Source of the DNA: Escherichia phage PECP14
Sequence record: OQ870555.1
Strand: one strand, 5' to 3'
Length of the DNA: 64,000 nt
Below are positions 14,589 to 62,700 of the stretch, piece after piece. The translations under genes and the position numbers were made by a program. Numbering within the stretch: position 1 is the first letter of the stretch; every line of letters begins with the position of its first letter. Under the pieces are notes generated by a model. The model saw only the letters and a program-made list of their open reading frames with translations. It was not told where the DNA came from and did not search any database.

Positions 14589-15082
14589 AATTTTATTCTA
14601 AGTCTAGGAATTTCAGGCTCCTCTTGATGGACTTGATAAATAACAGGGCTATTATTTACCAGAATATAGCTTATATAAGCTGGAACATAGGATAGCACGA
14701 ATGGATACGGGACTTTAGCCACATAGCATTGATACTTTCCATTATAAATTCTTGCAGAATGCAGAACTTTAGATGTGATAACATCATAGAACGTAGTTTT
14801 CTTCCAGTTAATGAGATTTCCATCAGAATCTATGAACTGGCTACGCTTTGACCCAACTAATTGGGACAACATTGATATTCTACCACGAATAGGATAGAGC
14901 TTATAAGGTAATTCTTTCCGCTTCTCAAATAAGGCTAACCTACGTTGAGAGAATGTGCCAGGCAACTCCCTGTTATCCAGCACATATTTATTATATCTTG
15001 TTGTAATTACGGAATAATCACCTTCCTGCTCAATTGATACAAACGCCCGTAAAGCATATACGGGCAATTTGAAATCAAGCAC
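14585..15082 (-). CDS. hypothetical protein (GTG start)
   Basis: 165 aa ORF starting 5 nt after the polymerase stop. Confidence 0.45.
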   Translation of the reverse strand: MLDFKLPVYALRAFVSIEQEGDYSVITTRYNKYVLDNRELPGTFSQRRLALFEKRKELPYKLYPIRGRISMLSQLVGSKRSQFIDSDGNLINWKKTTFYDVITSKVLHSARIYNGKYQCYVAKVPYPFVLSYVPAYISYILVNNSPVIYQVHQEEPEIPRLRIKL

Positions 15083-17642
15083 CTAAAATCCTTTTCACAT
15101 TATCCAGATCTTTACATACAGCAATAAACTTATCATCCTTGTACTTGCTGTGGTCTGGATGCTCTTTATCCATTGCAGCTAACTTCTTATACTCGAAATC
15201 TGCATCGAGTAATACACCCTTAACATAACGAGTATACTCATCATCATCAATACAAGCGATTGATGGGTGCTGTTTCTTCATCTTACCACAAGAGTAGTCA
15301 CGAGAACCACCTTTCTCAGAATCAGAATCAATACCGATTGGGCAGCCAGGGATACTAATACCACGATCCTTCTGGATGTTACGAATCAGAATCTCGTTAT
15401 ATTGATCAATCAGATCTTCACGTACAATAGCAACCACGGAGTCGTGAACCAACATGACGATCTTCATCTCTTTTCCTAGACCCAGGGACAGGATTTCCTC
15501 ATCCGCATCAATAGCACCTAACAACAGGCTATCAGAAGATGCAGACTGAATGATTGCGTTAAATCCAGAACGGATTTCTTCACCCTGAACACCGCGATCT
15601 TCGGAGTGGATATTGTGCAGACGACGCTTACGACCAAAGTGACTATAGATGAATCCAAAGTTCTTGATCTGATCGTGGCACTTATCAATCCAACGCTTAA
15701 GCTGAGGGAACTGACCGAAGTAAGTTTCGATATAGTCCTTCGCATCTGCAACGGTACATTCAACAAACGGTTCGCCTGTCTTAGCAGCCTGTTCCAGAAG
15801 AGCTTCGTTAACAGAATGAGCTACTTTAGCTGGGCCAGAACCATACAGAATACCGAAGGTAATTGCCTTAGCAGCCTGACGCAGAGCTGGGAACAGCTTC
15901 TTAACATCACGTGGTTCACAGGTCAGTTTAAATACCATGTGTGCGATGTTTGAGTGGAAGTCAGGGTATTTATCAGGCTCATTCTTCATGTTGATAAATA
16001 CTTGTTGCATGTTTCTGTCACCAGACAGTACAGCAGCGTAATAAACTTCCGCAGTTGTTAAGTCCCATGCGATTACACGATATCCAGGGGGAGCTACTAC
16101 ACAACCCTTAATAATAGATTCATCACGTGGTAACTGTTGCAGGTTTAGCTTACCAGAAGAACTCAGACGACCAGAAGTAGTCATGTGTTCGTGGAAACCG
16201 GTACGAATGCAACCATCTGCATCGATGCTCAGAAGAATCTTCTCAACATAAGTAGAGATCAGCTTAGTCAGCTTACGAATCTCTAGCAGAGTTTTCGCAA
16301 TCGGGTGCTGAGTAGCCAATTCATTCAGAGCTTCTGCGTTTGTAGAATCTGCACCTGTATCTGTCAGTTTACCAGTTGGAGTCAGACCAACATAATCAAA
16401 CAGAAGAACACGAAGTTGCTTAACAGAGTTCGGGTTAAATGCTTCGTTCTGATCTTTCTCTAGCTGAACGACTTCTGGATAAGTATACAGCTTTTCACGA
16501 GCCTTGTTCAGGTTGTGAGTTAACTGATACTGAGCTTCTTTCAAGCGATCAACAGAAATTGGTACACCACGATCTTCAACACGTTGCAGGAATACGCAAC
16601 CAGGCATCAGAACATCATAGTATAGACTGCGAAGTTTTTCATTCTTCTCAATTTTCGGTAAGAAGAAGTTATGCAGACGCAGAGTAGCATCGGTATCTTT
16701 TGCAGCATATGGCCACATAATATCAAATGGAATCAGATCATAGCTGAAATCCTCTTTTTTGATCTTATGTGCCTTGCAATAATCATCCTTGAACTTATCC
16801 AGTTCAAAGTCGTAATCGCCCATGTCAGTATACTTCATAGCCAGAGATTTCAGGCCGTGGGTACCACGACGTTCATCGAGAACATAGTGTTGTAACATGG
16901 TATCATGAAGTCTACGCTCTTTATGTGCTTTCTCAAAGGAAAGTCCTAAATGATAGGAATAAAAGTGCATATCGAACTTCAAGTTATGAAAAACGATCTG
17001 ATGATTCTTGCTATCCAGAATTTTCTGGAGATAATGTACAGCTACTTCGGTGATGCTGTCAGAGTCAATATAAACACCCTGATACTCTTGGTGAGACATA
17101 GAAACACCAAGCAGATAACCATCACGAGCGTACAAAGCTGAGGTTTCGGAGTCGAATGCGACAGGTCCGATAACCATGTTATACACCATCTTAATGTATT
17201 CTTCAGCTTCGTCTGGATCAGTAATAGGACGATAATCACCAGCTTTTGCAATCTTCTCACGACCATTAATAATGTCATGAATACTTTCTACAGTTGCATC
17301 GAAAACTGGTTTCATTTCAGGTTTAAAGTGTAGCTGAGCTGGACTAATACTTGCAATCCAGTTGGCATAGCCGCCATGCTCTACACGTTTACCAGTATAA
17401 TCACCGATACCTTTCTTACCTGCGAAATACAGGAAAGGTTCAGCACCAACTAGTACAACAAAATCGTAATCGTTCGGATCGAACGGGTTAACTGGAGTTC
17501 CGATTGTAATATGCTTTTTCAGCAAACGGCCAGATAACTTCTCGTTACACATATGGAATACATCAACTTCCTCACCGTAAAGCTGGAAGTGTTTATCATA
17601 ACGAGTGTTATTTAGAGCTTTATCAACTACTGCAATTTTCAA
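15075..17642 (-). CDS. DNA polymerase, family A (T5-type, with 3'-5' exonuclease domain)
   Basis: 855 aa; exo motif FDSETS, Pol A motifs (...RQAAKAITFGILYG..., ...LVHDS...); TTG start with strong RBS AAGGAG 7 nt upstream. Confidence 0.9.
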   Translation of the reverse strand: MKIAVVDKALNNTRYDKHFQLYGEEVDVFHMCNEKLSGRLLKKHITIGTPVNPFDPNDYDFVVLVGAEPFLYFAGKKGIGDYTGKRVEHGGYANWIASISPAQLHFKPEMKPVFDATVESIHDIINGREKIAKAGDYRPITDPDEAEEYIKMVYNMVIGPVAFDSETSALYARDGYLLGVSMSHQEYQGVYIDSDSITEVAVHYLQKILDSKNHQIVFHNLKFDMHFYSYHLGLSFEKAHKERRLHDTMLQHYVLDERRGTHGLKSLAMKYTDMGDYDFELDKFKDDYCKAHKIKKEDFSYDLIPFDIMWPYAAKDTDATLRLHNFFLPKIEKNEKLRSLYYDVLMPGCVFLQRVEDRGVPISVDRLKEAQYQLTHNLNKAREKLYTYPEVVQLEKDQNEAFNPNSVKQLRVLLFDYVGLTPTGKLTDTGADSTNAEALNELATQHPIAKTLLEIRKLTKLISTYVEKILLSIDADGCIRTGFHEHMTTSGRLSSSGKLNLQQLPRDESIIKGCVVAPPGYRVIAWDLTTAEVYYAAVLSGDRNMQQVFINMKNEPDKYPDFHSNIAHMVFKLTCEPRDVKKLFPALRQAAKAITFGILYGSGPAKVAHSVNEALLEQAAKTGEPFVECTVADAKDYIETYFGQFPQLKRWIDKCHDQIKNFGFIYSHFGRKRRLHNIHSEDRGVQGEEIRSGFNAIIQSASSDSLLLGAIDADEEILSLGLGKEMKIVMLVHDSVVAIVREDLIDQYNEILIRNIQKDRGISIPGCPIGIDSDSEKGGSRDYSCGKMKKQHPSIACIDDDEYTRYVKGVLLDADFEYKKLAAMDKEHPDHSKYKDDKFIAVCKDLDNVKRILGA

Positions 17643-42495: not shown

Positions 42496-42524
42496 TTGCT
42501 AAACGCTTCAAAATTTCGTATAAT
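42496..42524 (+). promoter_or_regulatory. early promoter module
   Basis: AAAAATTCATTTGCTAAACGCTTCAAAATTTCGTATAAT. Confidence 0.65.
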
Positions 42525-42563
42525 ATATCTCATAAATTGATTAACAAAAAAGGAAAACAAATA

Positions 42564-43079
42564 ATGGCTAAGCAGAAAAACGCAAAAACTCAGGCAGCTC
42601 CGGCAGTTAAAACTTTCGCTCAGACCGAAGCCAATCGTAAGGCTCGTCTGGAACGTCATCTGCGTAAGCATCCTACTGATGCTCAGGCTCAGACTGCCCT
42701 GAAGTCTGCGGCTCCGGTTCGCCAGAAGCCGAAGGCCAAGAACTCTACTCGCGCAACTGCTAAGCAGGTTGTGTTCATCAAGGGTGAAGGTCATAAGTCT
42801 GTACCGGTAACTCTGAGCTTTAACGGCGGTGCTGAGATGTTCGCCCGCAACGGTATGGCTCTGAAAGACTACGAAAAAGCAGTCAATCAGAAGCGTAAGC
42901 CAATGGCTGACGTAATACGTGAATCCCGTGGACAGTTTGGCTCCGTTAAACCGAATATTTTCGGTGTAGAGTATAGCCGTGACAACGTTCGCGCTCTGTG
43001 CTACGGTATCGGTATTAAGTTTACTGGTGCTTCTGATCGTAAATCCGCTAAACCTACTCGTAAGCGTAAAGCGAAGTAA
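42564..43079 (+). CDS. hypothetical basic protein (171 aa)
   Basis: ATG at 42564 (MAKQKNAKTQ...) with RBS AAAAGGAAAAC; Lys/Arg-rich ends. Confidence 0.55.
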   Translation: MAKQKNAKTQAAPAVKTFAQTEANRKARLERHLRKHPTDAQAQTALKSAAPVRQKPKAKNSTRATAKQVVFIKGEGHKSVPVTLSFNGGAEMFARNGMALKDYEKAVNQKRKPMADVIRESRGQFGSVKPNIFGVEYSRDNVRALCYGIGIKFTGASDRKSAKPTRKRKAK

Positions 43080-43140: not shown

Positions 43141-43356
43141 ATGTTCTCTAAGAAACCACGTTCCGTTACTGAAATCGTTGCTTCCTTTACCACTATTACT
43201 GATGAACTTCAAGCTCGTATTGAAGCTGACCAGAAAACTGCTGCTGATATTCAGAAACAGCAGGAAGAACTCGCTCTGAAACTGGCTGAAACCAATAAGA
43301 GTGAAAAATCTGCTCAAACTATTAAGGAAAATATCCTTAAACTGCTGGACAAGTAA
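43141..43356 (+). CDS. hypothetical coiled-coil protein
   Basis: 71 aa ORF, ATG start. Confidence 0.5.
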   Translation: MFSKKPRSVTEIVASFTTITDELQARIEADQKTAADIQKQQEELALKLAETNKSEKSAQTIKENILKLLDK

Positions 43357-43364
43357 TTTAAATC

Positions 43365-43390
43365 AGGGGGCGAAAGCCCCTCTTATTTGG
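43365..43390 (+). terminator. rho-independent terminator (GNRA-type GAAA loop)
   Basis: AGGGGGC-GAAA-GCCCCT followed by CTTATTT; a sister hairpin GGGGCGAAAGCCCC sits near 43087-43103. Confidence 0.6.
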
Positions 43391-43397
43391 AGAAACT

Positions 43398-43610
43398 ATG
43401 CGTAACTTCGTTGCAAAGAATGATTTTAACCGTGCTAGCACTCACAAGTCTGCTAGAGACTACACTCGTCTTTCTAAACATGAGCTTCTAGAAGAAATCA
43501 TGGAAGAAAACTGGGATGTTAGTGAAAATGGAACAGACCTGTTTGAAGAAGAGGAACTTCCTCTGAAAGACCCCAAACAGTGGGAGTCTATTAAAGAGAC
43601 AGCTCTTTAA
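43398..43610 (+). CDS. hypothetical acidic protein
   Basis: 70 aa ORF with RBS GGAGAAA. Confidence 0.5.
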   Translation: MRNFVAKNDFNRASTHKSARDYTRLSKHELLEEIMEENWDVSENGTDLFEEEELPLKDPKQWESIKETAL

Positions 43611-43640
43611 TAGTTTTCTACAACAATAAAGGACATAATT

Positions 43641-44342
43641 ATGAAATTCAAGCCCTTTGGTATGCTGGACATTGAATCTCTAGGTACTCCAGGAAATTGC
43701 GGTACTACTCATATTGCAATGCCTTCTTTCGCTTTTGTAGCGATGCACGGAATTGATAAAGATCCTGATCTGGTATTCGTTACTCTAGACGTTCAAGATC
43801 AGCTTAATGCGGGTGCTAAGGTAACTGCCTCTACTATTGCATTCTGGATGGATCAAGCTAAAAACAGTCCATCTGCGCTCCATATTATGGAGGCTCTAAA
43901 TGGTCGTAATCCTAAACTGATTGCCTTCCGTGATGGTAAGCATCACTGCACTAATGACGTAGGCTCTAATTATGCTGCCTTCTCTATGGCTCAGAACATT
44001 ATGGAATTGTCTCTAGGAGATAATGCTCTGTATTACGGCAATGGCCCAGAGTTTGATATGACAATCTACTCTGCAAATACGTTCCATGCCGGAACCCATG
44101 AAGAAATAGTTCCGTGGAAATTCTGGAACTTAGGTAACGTTCGATCTTTCCGTAATCAGTGGATGCAAGCTGGTTATAGCTATAAAGATCTAGAAGCCGA
44201 AGGTGCTAGCTGGGCAAAAGCTAAAATGGAAAAGATGGACACCATTCGTTATGGAATCTATCCTGTGAAGCATGATCCAGCATTCGATGCTTTAGTTGAA
44301 AGTTATTGTGTAGCCGTCATGATCGAAAAAATCAAAATTTGA
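43641..44342 (+). CDS. DEDDh-family 3'-5' exonuclease-like protein
   Basis: 233 aa; Exo I MLDIESLG, Exo II YYGNGPEFDMTIY, Exo III KHDPAFDALVESY (H-x4-D). Confidence 0.65.
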   Translation: MKFKPFGMLDIESLGTPGNCGTTHIAMPSFAFVAMHGIDKDPDLVFVTLDVQDQLNAGAKVTASTIAFWMDQAKNSPSALHIMEALNGRNPKLIAFRDGKHHCTNDVGSNYAAFSMAQNIMELSLGDNALYYGNGPEFDMTIYSANTFHAGTHEEIVPWKFWNLGNVRSFRNQWMQAGYSYKDLEAEGASWAKAKMEKMDTIRYGIYPVKHDPAFDALVESYCVAVMIEKIKI

Positions 44343-44343
44343 T

Positions 44344-44372
44344 TTGCTTTCAGCTCCAAAATTCTGTATAAT
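44344..44372 (+). promoter_or_regulatory. early promoter module
   Basis: TTGCTT-17 nt-TATAAT, then ..ATAAATTTGAGAGAACAACAAAAGGAAAACAATT-ATG. Confidence 0.65.
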
Positions 44373-44412: not shown

Positions 44413-44595
44413 ATGCCAGTATCTAAAAACGTCCGTAAAAATGGTAAAGTAGCAAAACGTAACCTGGGTCTGCGTCGTATGGCTGAACGTCAGTCCGGCA
44501 TCCAGAAAATCTTTAACGTACTGAATCGCGCCAATCCGAATATTGATAACAGTTCTGATACTGTTCTGCGCACTCTGCTGGCAATCGGTCTGTAA
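44413..44595 (+). CDS. hypothetical small basic protein
   Basis: 60 aa ORF downstream of a promoter module. Confidence 0.45.
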   Translation: MPVSKNVRKNGKVAKRNLGLRRMAERQSGIQKIFNVLNRANPNIDNSSDTVLRTLLAIGL

Positions 44596-44649
44596 TAGAC
44601 CGTTTTTAAAACAAATTCAAATCTCAAACTTCATATAAGGAAGCAAATA

Positions 44650-45288
44650 ATGACTACTCGTATCTCTAAAACTCGTGCTCTGGCAACTATCAAGTCTCTG
44701 GAAGCTAAAATCCGTAAAGCTACTGAACAACAGCTTTTGATTGCTGTTGGTGAAGGTAAAGACAAGAATCAAGTTGTCGTTGGTGCTGCAATCGAAGTAG
44801 ATGCTCTGTCTACTCGTATTAAAACTGATTTCCAGTCTCTGCTGGATATGATGACCCAGCGTGATCATCTGAAAGCAGCGCTGATCAAGAGCAATGCTGA
44901 AACTGTTGTAGAGATCGGTTCCCGCTCTATGACTGTTGCGGAAGCAATCGAAGCTAAGCGTTCTATGGAACTCAAAGCTCAGTTGCTGGCTAACATGCGT
45001 AAGCAGTTCCATGCTGCTACTGTTAAGTTTAACACTCAGAAGGCTCAGTTTGATGCCAAGTATGAGCGTTTGCAGGATACCATGGCTACCCGCGACAAGA
45101 AGACTTCCGAGGATGAAGTTAAGATGCAGCTTAACCTGCTGGAACTCAAGAACACTCCGTTCCTGATCGATCCGCTGGAGCTGGAAAAGCTGATCAAGCA
45201 ACACGACGAAGAATACCAGGACTTTGCAACCAACGTTGACTTTGTTCTGTCTGAGTCCAACGCCTCTACTTTTATCGAAGTAGAGTAA
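44650..45288 (+). CDS. hypothetical alpha-helical protein
   Basis: 212 aa ORF with RBS AAGGAAG. Confidence 0.55.
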   Translation: MTTRISKTRALATIKSLEAKIRKATEQQLLIAVGEGKDKNQVVVGAAIEVDALSTRIKTDFQSLLDMMTQRDHLKAALIKSNAETVVEIGSRSMTVAEAIEAKRSMELKAQLLANMRKQFHAATVKFNTQKAQFDAKYERLQDTMATRDKKTSEDEVKMQLNLLELKNTPFLIDPLELEKLIKQHDEEYQDFATNVDFVLSESNASTFIEVE

Positions 45289-45731: not shown

Positions 45732-46049
45732 ATGATTTTTCATATTCTGATTGATGATGTGCGTAACCTTCATGGAATGGACATTATCATTCGAACCCCC
45801 GAAGCCGCTGTTGAGTTTCTGAATAAAACCGATACCACAGGTCATTTCGTTTATATGGATAACGATCTGGCTGTAGATGGTATGGAAGGTTATCAAATTC
45901 TTCGTTTACTCCTAGAATTTGGTCAGAGACCCAAGAAAGTGGTACTAGTAACCTCGAACCCAGTAGCTAAAGAGACCATGCGTAATGATCTCTTAGACGA
46001 AGGGTATCAAGAAAGCCCTAATCGTATTGAGTACGATTGGCCGGAGTAA
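45732..46049 (+). CDS. hypothetical protein, possible receiver (CheY-like) fold
   Basis: 105 aa; alternating hydrophobic/acidic pattern (IFHILIDDV...YMDNDLAVDGMEGYQILRLL...VVLVTSNP) resembles a stand-alone receiver domain. Inference only. Confidence 0.5.
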   Translation: MIFHILIDDVRNLHGMDIIIRTPEAAVEFLNKTDTTGHFVYMDNDLAVDGMEGYQILRLLLEFGQRPKKVVLVTSNPVAKETMRNDLLDEGYQESPNRIEYDWPE

Positions 46050-55445: not shown

Positions 55446-55520
55446 GCACCTTTAGCTGAGATGGATTAGCGCTTGCCTGAAGAGCTTGAGAGGTTGGATC
55501 GTTACCAACGGGGTGCACCA
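55446..55520 (+). tRNA. tRNA-Phe-like (anticodon GAA) with atypical stems
   Basis: Acceptor GCACCTT/GGGGTGC, D-stem GCTG/TAGC, loop CTGAAGA, unusual T-loop ATCGTTA, CCA; anticodon stem has two mismatches. Confidence 0.45.
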
Positions 55521-62624: not shown

Positions 62625-62700
62625 AGTTAGTTGGCAGAGTGGTTATGCACCTCCTTCATACGGAGTGACTACAGTGGTTCAAATCCACTACTAACTACTA
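62625..62700 (+). tRNA. tRNA with CAU anticodon, copy 3; 3'-CCA not encoded
   Basis: Acceptor AGTTAGT/ACTAACT, loop TTCATAC, T-arm AGTGG-TTCAAAT-CCACT; sequence after the discriminator is CTA. Confidence 0.6.

What the first reader, a model, noticed from the sequence alone, without database searches (positions are those of the whole stretch)
43641..44342. DEDDh 3'-5' exonuclease-like protein among early genes
All three exonuclease motifs are present (DIE, NGPEFD, H-x4-D) in a 233-aa protein expressed from the early block, separate from the replication module. It could be an RNase T or oligoribonuclease-like enzyme processing tRNA 3' ends (note the tRNA without encoded CCA), or a nuclease degrading signalling nucleotides. 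Both are inference.
Basis: partly seen in the sequence, partly recalled or inferred. Interest (0 to 1): 0.45.

Follow-up and report, generated by a model that had tools for sequence, protein, structure and literature searches.

The report
DexA-like 3'-5' exonuclease of T5-like phage
The gene is a real, well-conserved 3'-to-5' nucleic-acid-trimming enzyme of T5-like phages, related to the known DexA exonuclease of phage T4 and often mislabelled "metallopeptidase". It is an ordinary member of a known enzyme family whose substrate has not been tested.

Summary
Window 43641-44342 (+) encodes a 233-aa protein with D10-I-E12, N134-GPEF-D139 and H211-x4-D216. These five DEDDh residues are invariant in 27 homologues. 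They align with the catalytic residues D7/E9/D119/H186/D191 of T4 DexA.

The common database label "metallopeptidase" has no support. The gene is under strong purifying selection (dN/dS 0.065). It is the last gene of a conserved module, DUF7022 - DUF7230 - exonuclease, that follows a site matching the T5 promoter P-H207. DUF7230 is fused to the exonuclease in Klebsiella T5-like phages, so it is probably a partner.

Its proposed roles are untested and not favoured. The protein is not a member of the RNase T or oligoribonuclease families. 27 of 28 phage tRNAs encode CCA. Cyclic nucleotides lack the free 3' end that this chemistry needs.

Verdict: new member of a known kind, low interest.

The parts
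43641..44342 (+). CDS, 233 aa: DexA-like / Rv2179c-like DEDDh 3'-5' exonuclease, orthologue of T5.087
43630..43633 (+). Shine-Dalgarno-like AGGA, 7 nt before the ATG
   Evidence: Read directly from the sequence.
43668..43676 (+). ExoI motif D10-I-E12 (metal ligands)
   Evidence: Invariant D10 and E12. They align with DexA D7/E9.
43845..43847 (+). Invariant W69 (STIAFWM helix), a motif conserved throughout this alignment and shared with DexA (STIEWW)
   Evidence: Invariant column in A2, which includes T4 DexA.
44040..44057 (+). ExoII motif N134-G-P-E-F-D139
   Evidence: G135 and D139 invariant. D139 aligns with DexA D119.
44112..44144 (+). P158-W-K-F-W-N-L-G-N-V-R168 motif shared with DexA (PCKFWNQRDIR). 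W162 corresponds to DexA W152. R168 is invariant.
   Evidence: hhalign and hmmsearch alignments. Invariant R168. Role of DexA W152 from PMC12153337.
44271..44288 (+). ExoIII motif H211-x4-D216 (general base His plus metal ligand Asp)
   Evidence: H211 and D216 invariant. They align colinearly with DexA H186/D191.
43398..43610 (+). Upstream 70-aa ORF (DUF7230, orthologue of T5.088), a probable partner or detached N-terminal segment of the exonuclease. It is in the same reading frame and separated from it by TAA TAG.
   Evidence: PF23876 E 3e-6. Fused to the exonuclease in P0015/P0020/P0021/P0025 and in Klebsiella phage Roth49, a 1005-bp CDS. 530 phage records against 549 for the exonuclease, with the same host make-up. 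Frame shown.
42537..43079 (+). First gene of the presumed transcription unit: basic 180-aa protein, DUF7022 (orthologue of T5.089), function unknown
   Evidence: PF22887 E 2.4e-79. Same position in divergent T5-like contigs L006 and L007 and in T5.
42496..42524 (+). Sigma-70 promoter-like site TTGCTA-17-TATAAT, at the place of T5 promoter P-H207
   Evidence: Consensus scan, 10/12. Annotated 'P-H 207-like promoter' in phage S114. Annotated 'promoter P-H 207' upstream of T5.089 in T5.

Best explanation
The gene encodes a stand-alone, catalytically competent DEDDh (DnaQ-like) 3'-to-5' exonuclease of the Rv2179c-like/DexA family (Pfam PF16473). It is the Epseptimavirus orthologue of T5 gene T5.087.

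Mechanism, by homology: D10, E12, D139 and D216 hold two Mg2+ ions. H211 activates the water that attacks the last phosphodiester bond of a strand with a free 3'-OH. Nucleoside 5'-monophosphates are released one at a time.

The gene is transcribed with the early genes as the last gene of a unit that follows a P-H207-like site: DUF7022, a 71-aa ORF, DUF7230, then the exonuclease. It probably works together with the small DUF7230 protein, which is fused to its N-terminus in Klebsiella T5-like phages.

The most likely substrate is single-stranded DNA or short oligodeoxynucleotides, as for its closest characterised relative T4 DexA. That would give a role in trimming DNA 3' ends or turning oligonucleotides into mononucleotides during phage DNA metabolism.

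Shown here: fold, family and conserved catalytic residues. Inferred: activity, DNA as substrate, partnership with DUF7230 and the physiological role.
For: Family:
- PF16473 scores above its gathering cut-off. T4 DexA belongs to the same Pfam family, E 2.4e-22.
- PHROG 255 'exonuclease', E 2.6e-52.
- 23 of 25 relatives in alignment A2 match PF16473.

Structure:
- AF2 model with pLDDT 90.1 and pTM 0.90.
- Foldseek against PDB also ranks DexA first.

Catalytic residues:
- D10, E12, D139, H211 and D216 are invariant.
- They align with DexA D7, E9, D119, H186 and D191. PMC12153337 names D7, D119, D191 and H186 as the catalytic motif, conserved with Pol III epsilon. It prints the glutamate as E12, but position 12 of DexA is Gly and the glutamate is E9.
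- The motifs W69 and PWKFWN..R168 are shared with DexA.

Selection and spread: dN/dS 0.065; 549 phage records.

Context: the gene sits among DNA-precursor and DNA-processing genes (nrdA, nrdB, frd, thy, rnh) in this window and in divergent T5-like phages.

Early promoter: P-H207 is annotated upstream of T5.089-T5.088-T5.087 in T5 and has a matching site here.

Partner: DUF7230 is always adjacent. It is fused in Klebsiella phages.
Against: - No biochemical or genetic data exist for T5.087 or any orthologue. Literature searches found nothing.
- Identity to DexA is only about 15-19%. The profile-profile probability is modest: hhalign 58%, E 1e-4.
- The DexA role of scavenging host DNA fits T5 poorly. 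In T5, host DNA degradation is driven by the pre-early protein A1, which is reported as essential and sufficient (bioRxiv 10.64898/2026.04.02.716235). T5 dephosphorylates and discards host nucleotides (established knowledge).
- The AF2 model of the natural fusion protein gives no confident docking of the DUF7230 part, pLDDT 43-70.
Confidence: 0.6

Rival explanations
1. It is a 3'-5' exoribonuclease. It trims the 3' trailers of the roughly 28 phage tRNA precursors, or degrades short oligoribonucleotides left by mRNA decay, in the way RNase T or oligoribonuclease do.
For: - The Pfam family is named after the exoribonuclease Rv2179c.
- 28 tRNA genes lie downstream on the same strand.
- Nearly all of them carry an encoded CCA followed by an A/T-rich trailer. 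In E. coli that kind of precursor is matured by 3' exonucleases (established knowledge).
- Some records annotate the orthologue as '3'-5' exoribonuclease'.
Against: - There is no match to any NCBIfam model, including the RNase T and Orn models. There is no Pfam RNase_T match at E<=1.
- The best structural match is a DNA exonuclease.
- The host already has redundant tRNA 3' trimming enzymes (established knowledge).
- The gene lies 3.7 kb from the nearest tRNA and about 9 kb from the main cluster. It sits in a separate transcription unit, with promoter-like and terminator-like sites in between.
- The neighbouring genes deal with DNA precursors.
Confidence: 0.25
2. It is a counter-defence nuclease, or a trigger sensed by defence systems. 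It would remove host-made linear nucleic-acid immune molecules that have a free 3' end. Examples are protein-primed poly-dA or oligo-dA (DRT9, Hailong), retron msDNA and linear di- or oligonucleotide signals.
For: - T5 is targeted by systems that make ssDNA: DRT9, retron-Septu and DRT1 (reviewed in PMC13434031; PMC13275509).
- Host ExoI, a 3'-5' ssDNA exonuclease, degrades DRT9 poly-dA in vitro.
- The gene is expressed early and is adjacent to small proteins of unknown function.
Against: - There is no PADLOC match.
- The reported T5 escape mutations or triggers lie in A1, DNA polymerase, D15 and gp58, not in this gene.
- Cyclic oligonucleotides have no 3' end and cannot be substrates of DEDDh chemistry (established enzymology).
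- The gene is part of the conserved core block of all Demerecviridae examined, not a variable accessory island.
Confidence: 0.08
3. It is a metallopeptidase, as most database records call it.
For: Many GenBank and UniRef records name the orthologue 'metallopeptidase'. The T5 record traces its call to InterPro IPR000834. From memory, unverified, that entry is the M14 carboxypeptidase family.
Against: - No peptidase family matches in Pfam at E<=1.
- The sequence has no HEXXH motif (read).
- The fold is an RNase H-like DEDDh exonuclease.
- RefSeq has already renamed the T5 protein 'exonuclease'.
- The same label is also attached to the unrelated 70-aa DUF7230 protein, which points to annotation spill-over.
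Confidence: 0.01

Closest known systems
Phage T4 DexA (exonuclease A; PDB 8KEL; PMC12153337)
   Same: - Same Pfam family, PF16473.
- Same five DEDDh residues.
- Shared motifs STI-x-(F/W)W and P-x-KFWN-x4-R, including the Trp that corresponds to DexA W152.
- Similar size, 227 against 233 aa.
- Both are stand-alone early genes of a large virulent coliphage.
   Different: - Only about 15-19% identity.
- The T5-like protein has about 20 extra residues between ExoI and ExoII. The model makes them a beta-hairpin (residues 92-106). It also has a longer helical segment between ExoII and ExoIII.
- It has a dedicated DUF7230 partner or fusion that T4 lacks.
- DexA's reported discrimination of 5hmC DNA, and its role in scavenging host DNA, cannot be transferred. 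T5 DNA has ordinary bases (established knowledge), and host DNA degradation in T5 depends on A1.
- DexA residues S87, D90 and D169 have no alignable counterparts.
Mycobacterium tuberculosis Rv2179c (PDB 4HEC), founding member of PF16473
   Different: It is shorter, 155 residues in the chain. It is a weaker match than DexA. It is described as an exoribonuclease of a bacterium, with no phage context. The Pfam alignment of the phage protein covers only profile positions 4-147 of 177.
E. coli RNase T and oligoribonuclease / human REXO2
   Different: There is no sequence-family membership: no NCBIfam hit and no Pfam RNase_T hit. Identity is 8-13%. The basic nucleotide-binding segments typical of RNase T were not identified.
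DNA polymerase III epsilon (DnaQ) proofreading subunit
   Different: There is no polymerase-binding tail or clamp motif. The phage polymerase has its own exonuclease domain, PF01612, in the 855-aa Pol A at 15075-17642.

Membership tests
DEDDh (DnaQ-like) 3'-5' exonuclease superfamily | ExoI D-x-E, ExoII D and ExoIII H-x4-D motifs in that order | tested here: met
   D10/E12, D139 and H211/D216 are invariant in 27 and in 25 homologues.
DEDDh (DnaQ-like) 3'-5' exonuclease superfamily | RNase H-like alpha/beta fold that superposes on solved DEDDh enzymes | tested here: met
DEDDh (DnaQ-like) 3'-5' exonuclease superfamily | Metal-dependent 3'-5' exonuclease activity | not testable with these tools
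   Needs purified protein. No published data were found.
Pfam PF16473 Rv2179c-like / T4 DexA family | Score above Pfam's gathering threshold | tested here: met
   31.9 bits against a cut-off of 27, E 1.3e-7. 23 of 25 relatives also match. DexA itself scores 79.9 bits.
Pfam PF16473 Rv2179c-like / T4 DexA family | Closest solved structure is a family member | tested here: met
Pfam PF16473 Rv2179c-like / T4 DexA family | Conserved non-catalytic motifs (W of STIxxW; PxKFWN...R) | tested here: met
   W69 and R168 are invariant in A2, which includes DexA. The motifs align.
Pfam PF16473 Rv2179c-like / T4 DexA family | Dimer or tetramer assembly with a Trp from the neighbouring subunit at the active site (DexA) | not tested
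   No multimer prediction tool was available. W162 is conserved, which is only suggestive.
T4 DexA functional type (HREX: 5hmC-DNA recognition, host DNA scavenging) | 5hmC-recognising residues W152 and D169, and tetramer residues S87 and D90 | tested here: inconclusive
   The W152 equivalent is present (W162). D169, S87 and D90 fall in regions that do not align. T5-type DNA carries no 5hmC (established knowledge).
RNase T (rnt) / oligoribonuclease (orn) | Match to the curated family models | tested here: not met
   No NCBIfam hit at E<=1. No Pfam PF00929 RNase_T hit at E<=1. The PDB sequence-profile search finds neither.
Known anti-phage defence or counter-defence nucleases | Match to PADLOC models | tested here: not met
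   No PADLOC hit at E<=1.
Metallopeptidase (database label) | Peptidase domain match or HEXXH-type zinc motif | tested here: not met
   Pfam finds only PF16473. There is no HEXXH in the sequence. The fold is that of an exonuclease.

The most novel reading that the evidence does not exclude
The exonuclease and the small DUF7230 protein form a two-part nuclease specific to Demerecviridae. DUF7230 has a basic N-terminus and an acidic tail. It is always adjacent to the exonuclease and is fused to it in Klebsiella phages. In this reading the small protein targets or restrains the enzyme, and the real substrate is host-made single-stranded immune DNA: DRT9 or Hailong poly-dA, or retron msDNA. The module would then be a counter-defence device, or the trigger that such guard systems sense, rather than a housekeeping nuclease.
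Probability: 0.08. Interest if true: 0.6.

Novelty: new member of a known kind. Interest (0 to 1): 0.2.

Why it matters
The practical value is modest.

- **Annotation.** It corrects a widespread annotation error: "metallopeptidase" in hundreds of T5-like phage records. It assigns T5.087 and its orthologues to the DexA/Rv2179c exonuclease family, with the catalytic residues named.
- **Partner protein.** It gives the first functional lead for DUF7230 (T5.088), through gene fusion and strict adjacency.
- **Why an experiment is worthwhile.** T5 does not recycle host DNA, so the textbook role of DexA does not explain why all Demerecviridae keep this enzyme under strong purifying selection. Its substrate is unknown and could be phage DNA ends, oligonucleotides, RNA 3' ends or defence-made ssDNA. 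Nothing in the sequence evidence points to a new mechanism.

Tried and rejected
- **phmmer against PDB sequences.** The top hits were designed armadillo-repeat proteins at E 5.6e-7. This is an artefact of summing six 4-bit matches of one 27-aa stretch to a repeat. No single stretch passes. Rejected.
- **Profile of 27 homologues against PDB sequences.** Nothing scored below E = 1. PCNA and a milk protein appear at E about 1 and are chance matches. Sequence alone does not reach DexA in PDB; the structure search was needed.
- **NCBIfam and PADLOC.** No hits.
- **AF2 of the natural DUF7230-exonuclease fusion P0020.** The aim was to see how the N-terminal part docks. That part has pLDDT 43-70, so no conclusion was drawn.
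- **Foldseek against afdb50.** The library was not available.
- **Literature searches** for T5p085/T5.085/T5p086/T5.086/DUF7230/PF16473, T5.087/088/089, 'phage T5' + DEDDh, and T5 escape mutants + exonuclease. No study of this gene was found.
- **Readthrough or frameshift joining DUF7230 to the exonuclease.** The two ORFs share a frame but are separated by two consecutive stops, TAA TAG. I judged programmed readthrough unlikely.
- **Metallopeptidase reading.** Rejected.

Full report
**What is there.** Window 43641-44342 (+) is an ATG-to-TGA ORF of 233 codons. AGGA lies 7 nt upstream of the start. No ORF of 40 aa or more lies inside the gene on the other strand.
- D10-I-E12 at 43668-43676;
- N134-G-P-E-F-D139 at 44040-44057;
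- H211-D-P-A-F-D216 at 44271-44288.

**Where the window comes from.** A 2.3-kb stretch around the gene is 99.7-99.9% identical to many Salmonella and Escherichia phages of the genus Epseptimavirus (Demerecviridae, T5-like). tblastn finds the protein in 549 phage records. These are almost all T5-like phages of Salmonella, Escherichia, Klebsiella, Yersinia, Pectobacterium and Serratia. A few distant hits fall in jumbo and Vibrio phages.

In the T5 reference genome the orthologue is T5.087 (44449-45150, 233 aa). Its product is 'exonuclease', with a note that the original call came from InterPro IPR000834. From memory, IPR000834 is the M14 carboxypeptidase entry. That would explain why most records call the protein 'metallopeptidase'. 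No peptidase family matches, there is no HEXXH motif, and the fold is not that of a peptidase. The label is an annotation artefact.

**Family.**
- Pfam gives a single match, PF16473 'Rv2179c-like 3'-5' exoribonuclease domain': E 1.3e-7, 31.9 bits against a cut-off of 27.
- PHROGs gives phrog_255 'exonuclease', E 2.6e-52.
- T4 DexA, fetched from NC_000866, belongs to the same Pfam family at E 2.4e-22.
- A profile of 27 homologues aligns to DexA with hhalign at E about 1e-4, probability 58%.
- A profile of 24 relatives built without DexA aligns DexA in three colinear pieces that contain ExoI, ExoII plus the PxKFWN..R motif, and ExoIII.
- A search of 1.84 billion representative proteins found 961 relatives at E<=1e-3. 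Of the 25 sequences in alignment A2, which draws on these relatives and includes the query and T4 DexA, 23 match PF16473.

**Catalytic residues.** D10, E12, D139, H211 and D216 are invariant in 27 homologues down to 36% identity. They are also invariant in a 25-sequence alignment down to 19% identity that includes T4 DexA. There they fall in the columns of DexA D7, E9, D119, H186 and D191.

The DexA structure paper names D7, D119, D191 and H186, together with a glutamate it prints as E12, as the catalytic motif conserved with Pol III epsilon (PMC12153337). Position 12 of DexA is Gly; the ExoI glutamate is E9.

W69 and R168 are also invariant. The motif PWKFWNLGNVR matches DexA PCKFWNQRDIR. It contains the counterpart of DexA W152.

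**Structure.** AlphaFold2 with the 27-sequence alignment gives pLDDT 90.1 and pTM 0.90.
- It is followed by ERI1 (13.8), REXO2 (13.6), Cap18 (13.5), RNase T (13.5), Pol III epsilon (13.1) and Rv2179c 4hec (12.1).
- Foldseek against PDB also puts DexA first and RNase T next.
- In BFVD the nearest viral models are T5-like orthologues. After those come phage proteins named DexA, exodeoxyribonuclease, DnaQ-like exonuclease or Rv2179c-like.

Compared with DexA, the T5-like clade has about 20 extra residues between ExoI and ExoII. The model makes them a beta-hairpin (residues 92-106). The clade also has a longer helical stretch before ExoIII.

**Selection.** Against the Tequintavirus orthologue (85% nucleotide and 90% protein identity), dS is 0.84, dN is 0.054 and dN/dS is 0.065. 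The protein is under strong purifying selection.

**Surroundings.** The - strand from 7.7 to 34 kb carries:
- the D15 flap nuclease;
- an SbcC-like ATPase;
- an SF2 helicase;
- Pol A with its own PF01612 3'-5' exonuclease domain;
- a DnaB-like helicase;
- NrdD.

The + strand from 34.5 kb carries nrdA, nrdB, frd, thy, rnh, several small ORFs, the exonuclease, a cell-wall hydrolase and then 28 tRNA genes.

Immediately upstream lie DUF7022 (42537-43079, a very basic protein), a 71-aa ORF and DUF7230 (43398-43610). A TTGCTA-17-TATAAT site at 42496-42524 corresponds to the site annotated 'P-H 207-like' in phage S114. It also corresponds to 'promoter P-H 207' upstream of T5.089-T5.088-T5.087 in T5. 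From memory, P-H207 is one of the classical T5 early promoters. A further promoter-like site (TTGCTT-17-TATAAT, 44344-44372) follows the stop codon, so the exonuclease ends its transcription unit.

The order nrdB-frd-thy-...-rnh-...-DUF7022-DUF7230-exonuclease-...-hydrolase is kept in metagenomic T5-like contigs whose exonuclease is only about 40% identical. The order from frd onwards is also kept in Serratia phage Kamaji.

**The DUF7230 link.**
- The 70-aa upstream protein is restricted to T5-like phages: 37 clusters and 530 phage records with the same host make-up as the exonuclease.
- In Klebsiella T5-like phages it is the N-terminal part of a 324-334-aa fusion with the exonuclease (P0015, P0020, P0021, P0025; Roth49 CDS of 1005 bp).
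- In this window the two ORFs share a reading frame and are separated by TAA TAG plus 24 nt. This looks like a split or fusion event, not readthrough.
- Fusion plus strict adjacency argues that the two proteins act together. This is an inference.
- AF2 on the fusion protein leaves the DUF7230 part at pLDDT 43-70 with one helix, so how it binds is unknown.
- The protein has a conserved basic N-terminus (MRNFVAKNDFNRASTHKS) and an acidic second half, 12 D/E against 3 K/R.

**Function.** The chemistry is safe by homology: two-metal hydrolysis from a free 3'-OH end, with His as general base.

The substrate is not settled. DNA is favoured for two reasons. The closest sequence and structure relative is the DNA exonuclease DexA, and the neighbours are DNA-precursor and DNA-processing genes.

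However, DexA's host-DNA-scavenging role does not transfer. In T5, host DNA breakdown is driven by the pre-early protein A1, which is reported as essential and sufficient (bioRxiv 10.64898/2026.04.02.716235). T5 also discards host nucleotides (established knowledge). DexA's 5hmC discrimination is irrelevant to a phage with ordinary bases.

My estimates:
- about 0.9 that this is an active DEDDh exonuclease of the DexA/Rv2179c family;
- about 0.5-0.6 that ssDNA or oligodeoxynucleotides are the physiological substrate.

An RNase T- or Orn-like role cannot be excluded, because Rv2179c is an RNase and RNase T and REXO2 are close in fold. Several points count against it:
- The protein is not a member of those families.
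- The host already supplies such enzymes (established knowledge).
- Only one tRNA lacks an encoded CCA, namely 62625-62697, which is followed by CTA.
- From memory, T4 tRNAs lacking CCA are matured by host RNase BN and the CCA-adding enzyme.

Degradation of cyclic signalling nucleotides conflicts with the need for a free 3' end. Only linear signals or defence-made ssDNA remain possible (poly-dA of DRT9 or Hailong, retron msDNA). No evidence ties this gene to them. There is no PADLOC match. Reported T5 escape mutations or triggers map to A1, the polymerase, D15 and gp58.

**Novelty and verdict.** The gene is a new, uncharacterised member of a known kind. Public resources already carry the exonuclease assignment for some records (RefSeq T5, PHROG 255, precomputed Pfam), and no publication deals with it. 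What is added here:
- the residue-level match to DexA;
- the rejection of the metallopeptidase label;
- the DUF7230 fusion and adjacency.

Interest is low, about 0.2.

Noticed in passing
window 43398-43610 (+): A 70-aa DUF7230 ORF (T5.088 orthologue) lies in the same reading frame as the exonuclease, separated from it by TAA TAG. It is fused to the exonuclease in Klebsiella T5-like phages (324-334-aa proteins). It has a basic conserved N-terminus and an acidic C-terminal half. UniRef also mislabels it 'metallopeptidase'.
   Followed up: yes
window 43588-43613 (+): An 11-bp-stem hairpin (CTATTAAAGAG-ACAG-CTCTTTAATAG) spans the stop codons of the DUF7230 ORF and is followed by TTTTCT. It is terminator- or attenuator-like and sits between the two ORFs. 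A GC-rich hairpin at 43366-43381 follows the preceding 71-aa ORF.
   Followed up: no
window 62625-62697 (+): This is the only one of 28 tRNA genes without an encoded CCA. It is tRNA(CAT), Rfam 52.5 bits, and it is followed by CTA. All 27 others end in CCA followed by an A/T-rich trailer.
   Followed up: partly
window 55446-55517 (+): Rfam calls an additional tRNA (33.4 bits, above the gathering score) that ARAGORN did not report, directly after tRNA-Trp.
   Followed up: no
window 42537-43079 (+): A very basic 180-aa protein (DUF7022, phrog_4516, T5.089 orthologue) is the first gene after the P-H207-like promoter. It is always found just upstream of DUF7230 and the exonuclease in T5-like phages. 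Its function is unknown. It may belong to the same functional module.
   Followed up: partly
window 43141-43356 (+) and 44650-45288 (+): Public records annotate these early-block ORFs as 'tail length tape-measure protein' (71 aa) and 'tail fiber protein' (212 aa, phrog_1491). That is implausible for their size and their location among early genes. The labels are probably coiled-coil-driven misannotations.
   Followed up: no
window 44344-44372 (+): A promoter-like TTGCTT-17-TATAAT lies immediately after the exonuclease stop codon. It is annotated as a putative promoter in phage S114 and in T5, and it starts the next transcription unit.
   Followed up: no
window 45732-46049 (+): A 105-aa ORF lies upstream of the cell-wall hydrolase. 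Its positional counterparts in related contigs (L006 7074-7529, L007 7486-7803) carry Pfam cREC_REC, a receiver-like domain. That is unusual for a virulent phage.
   Followed up: no
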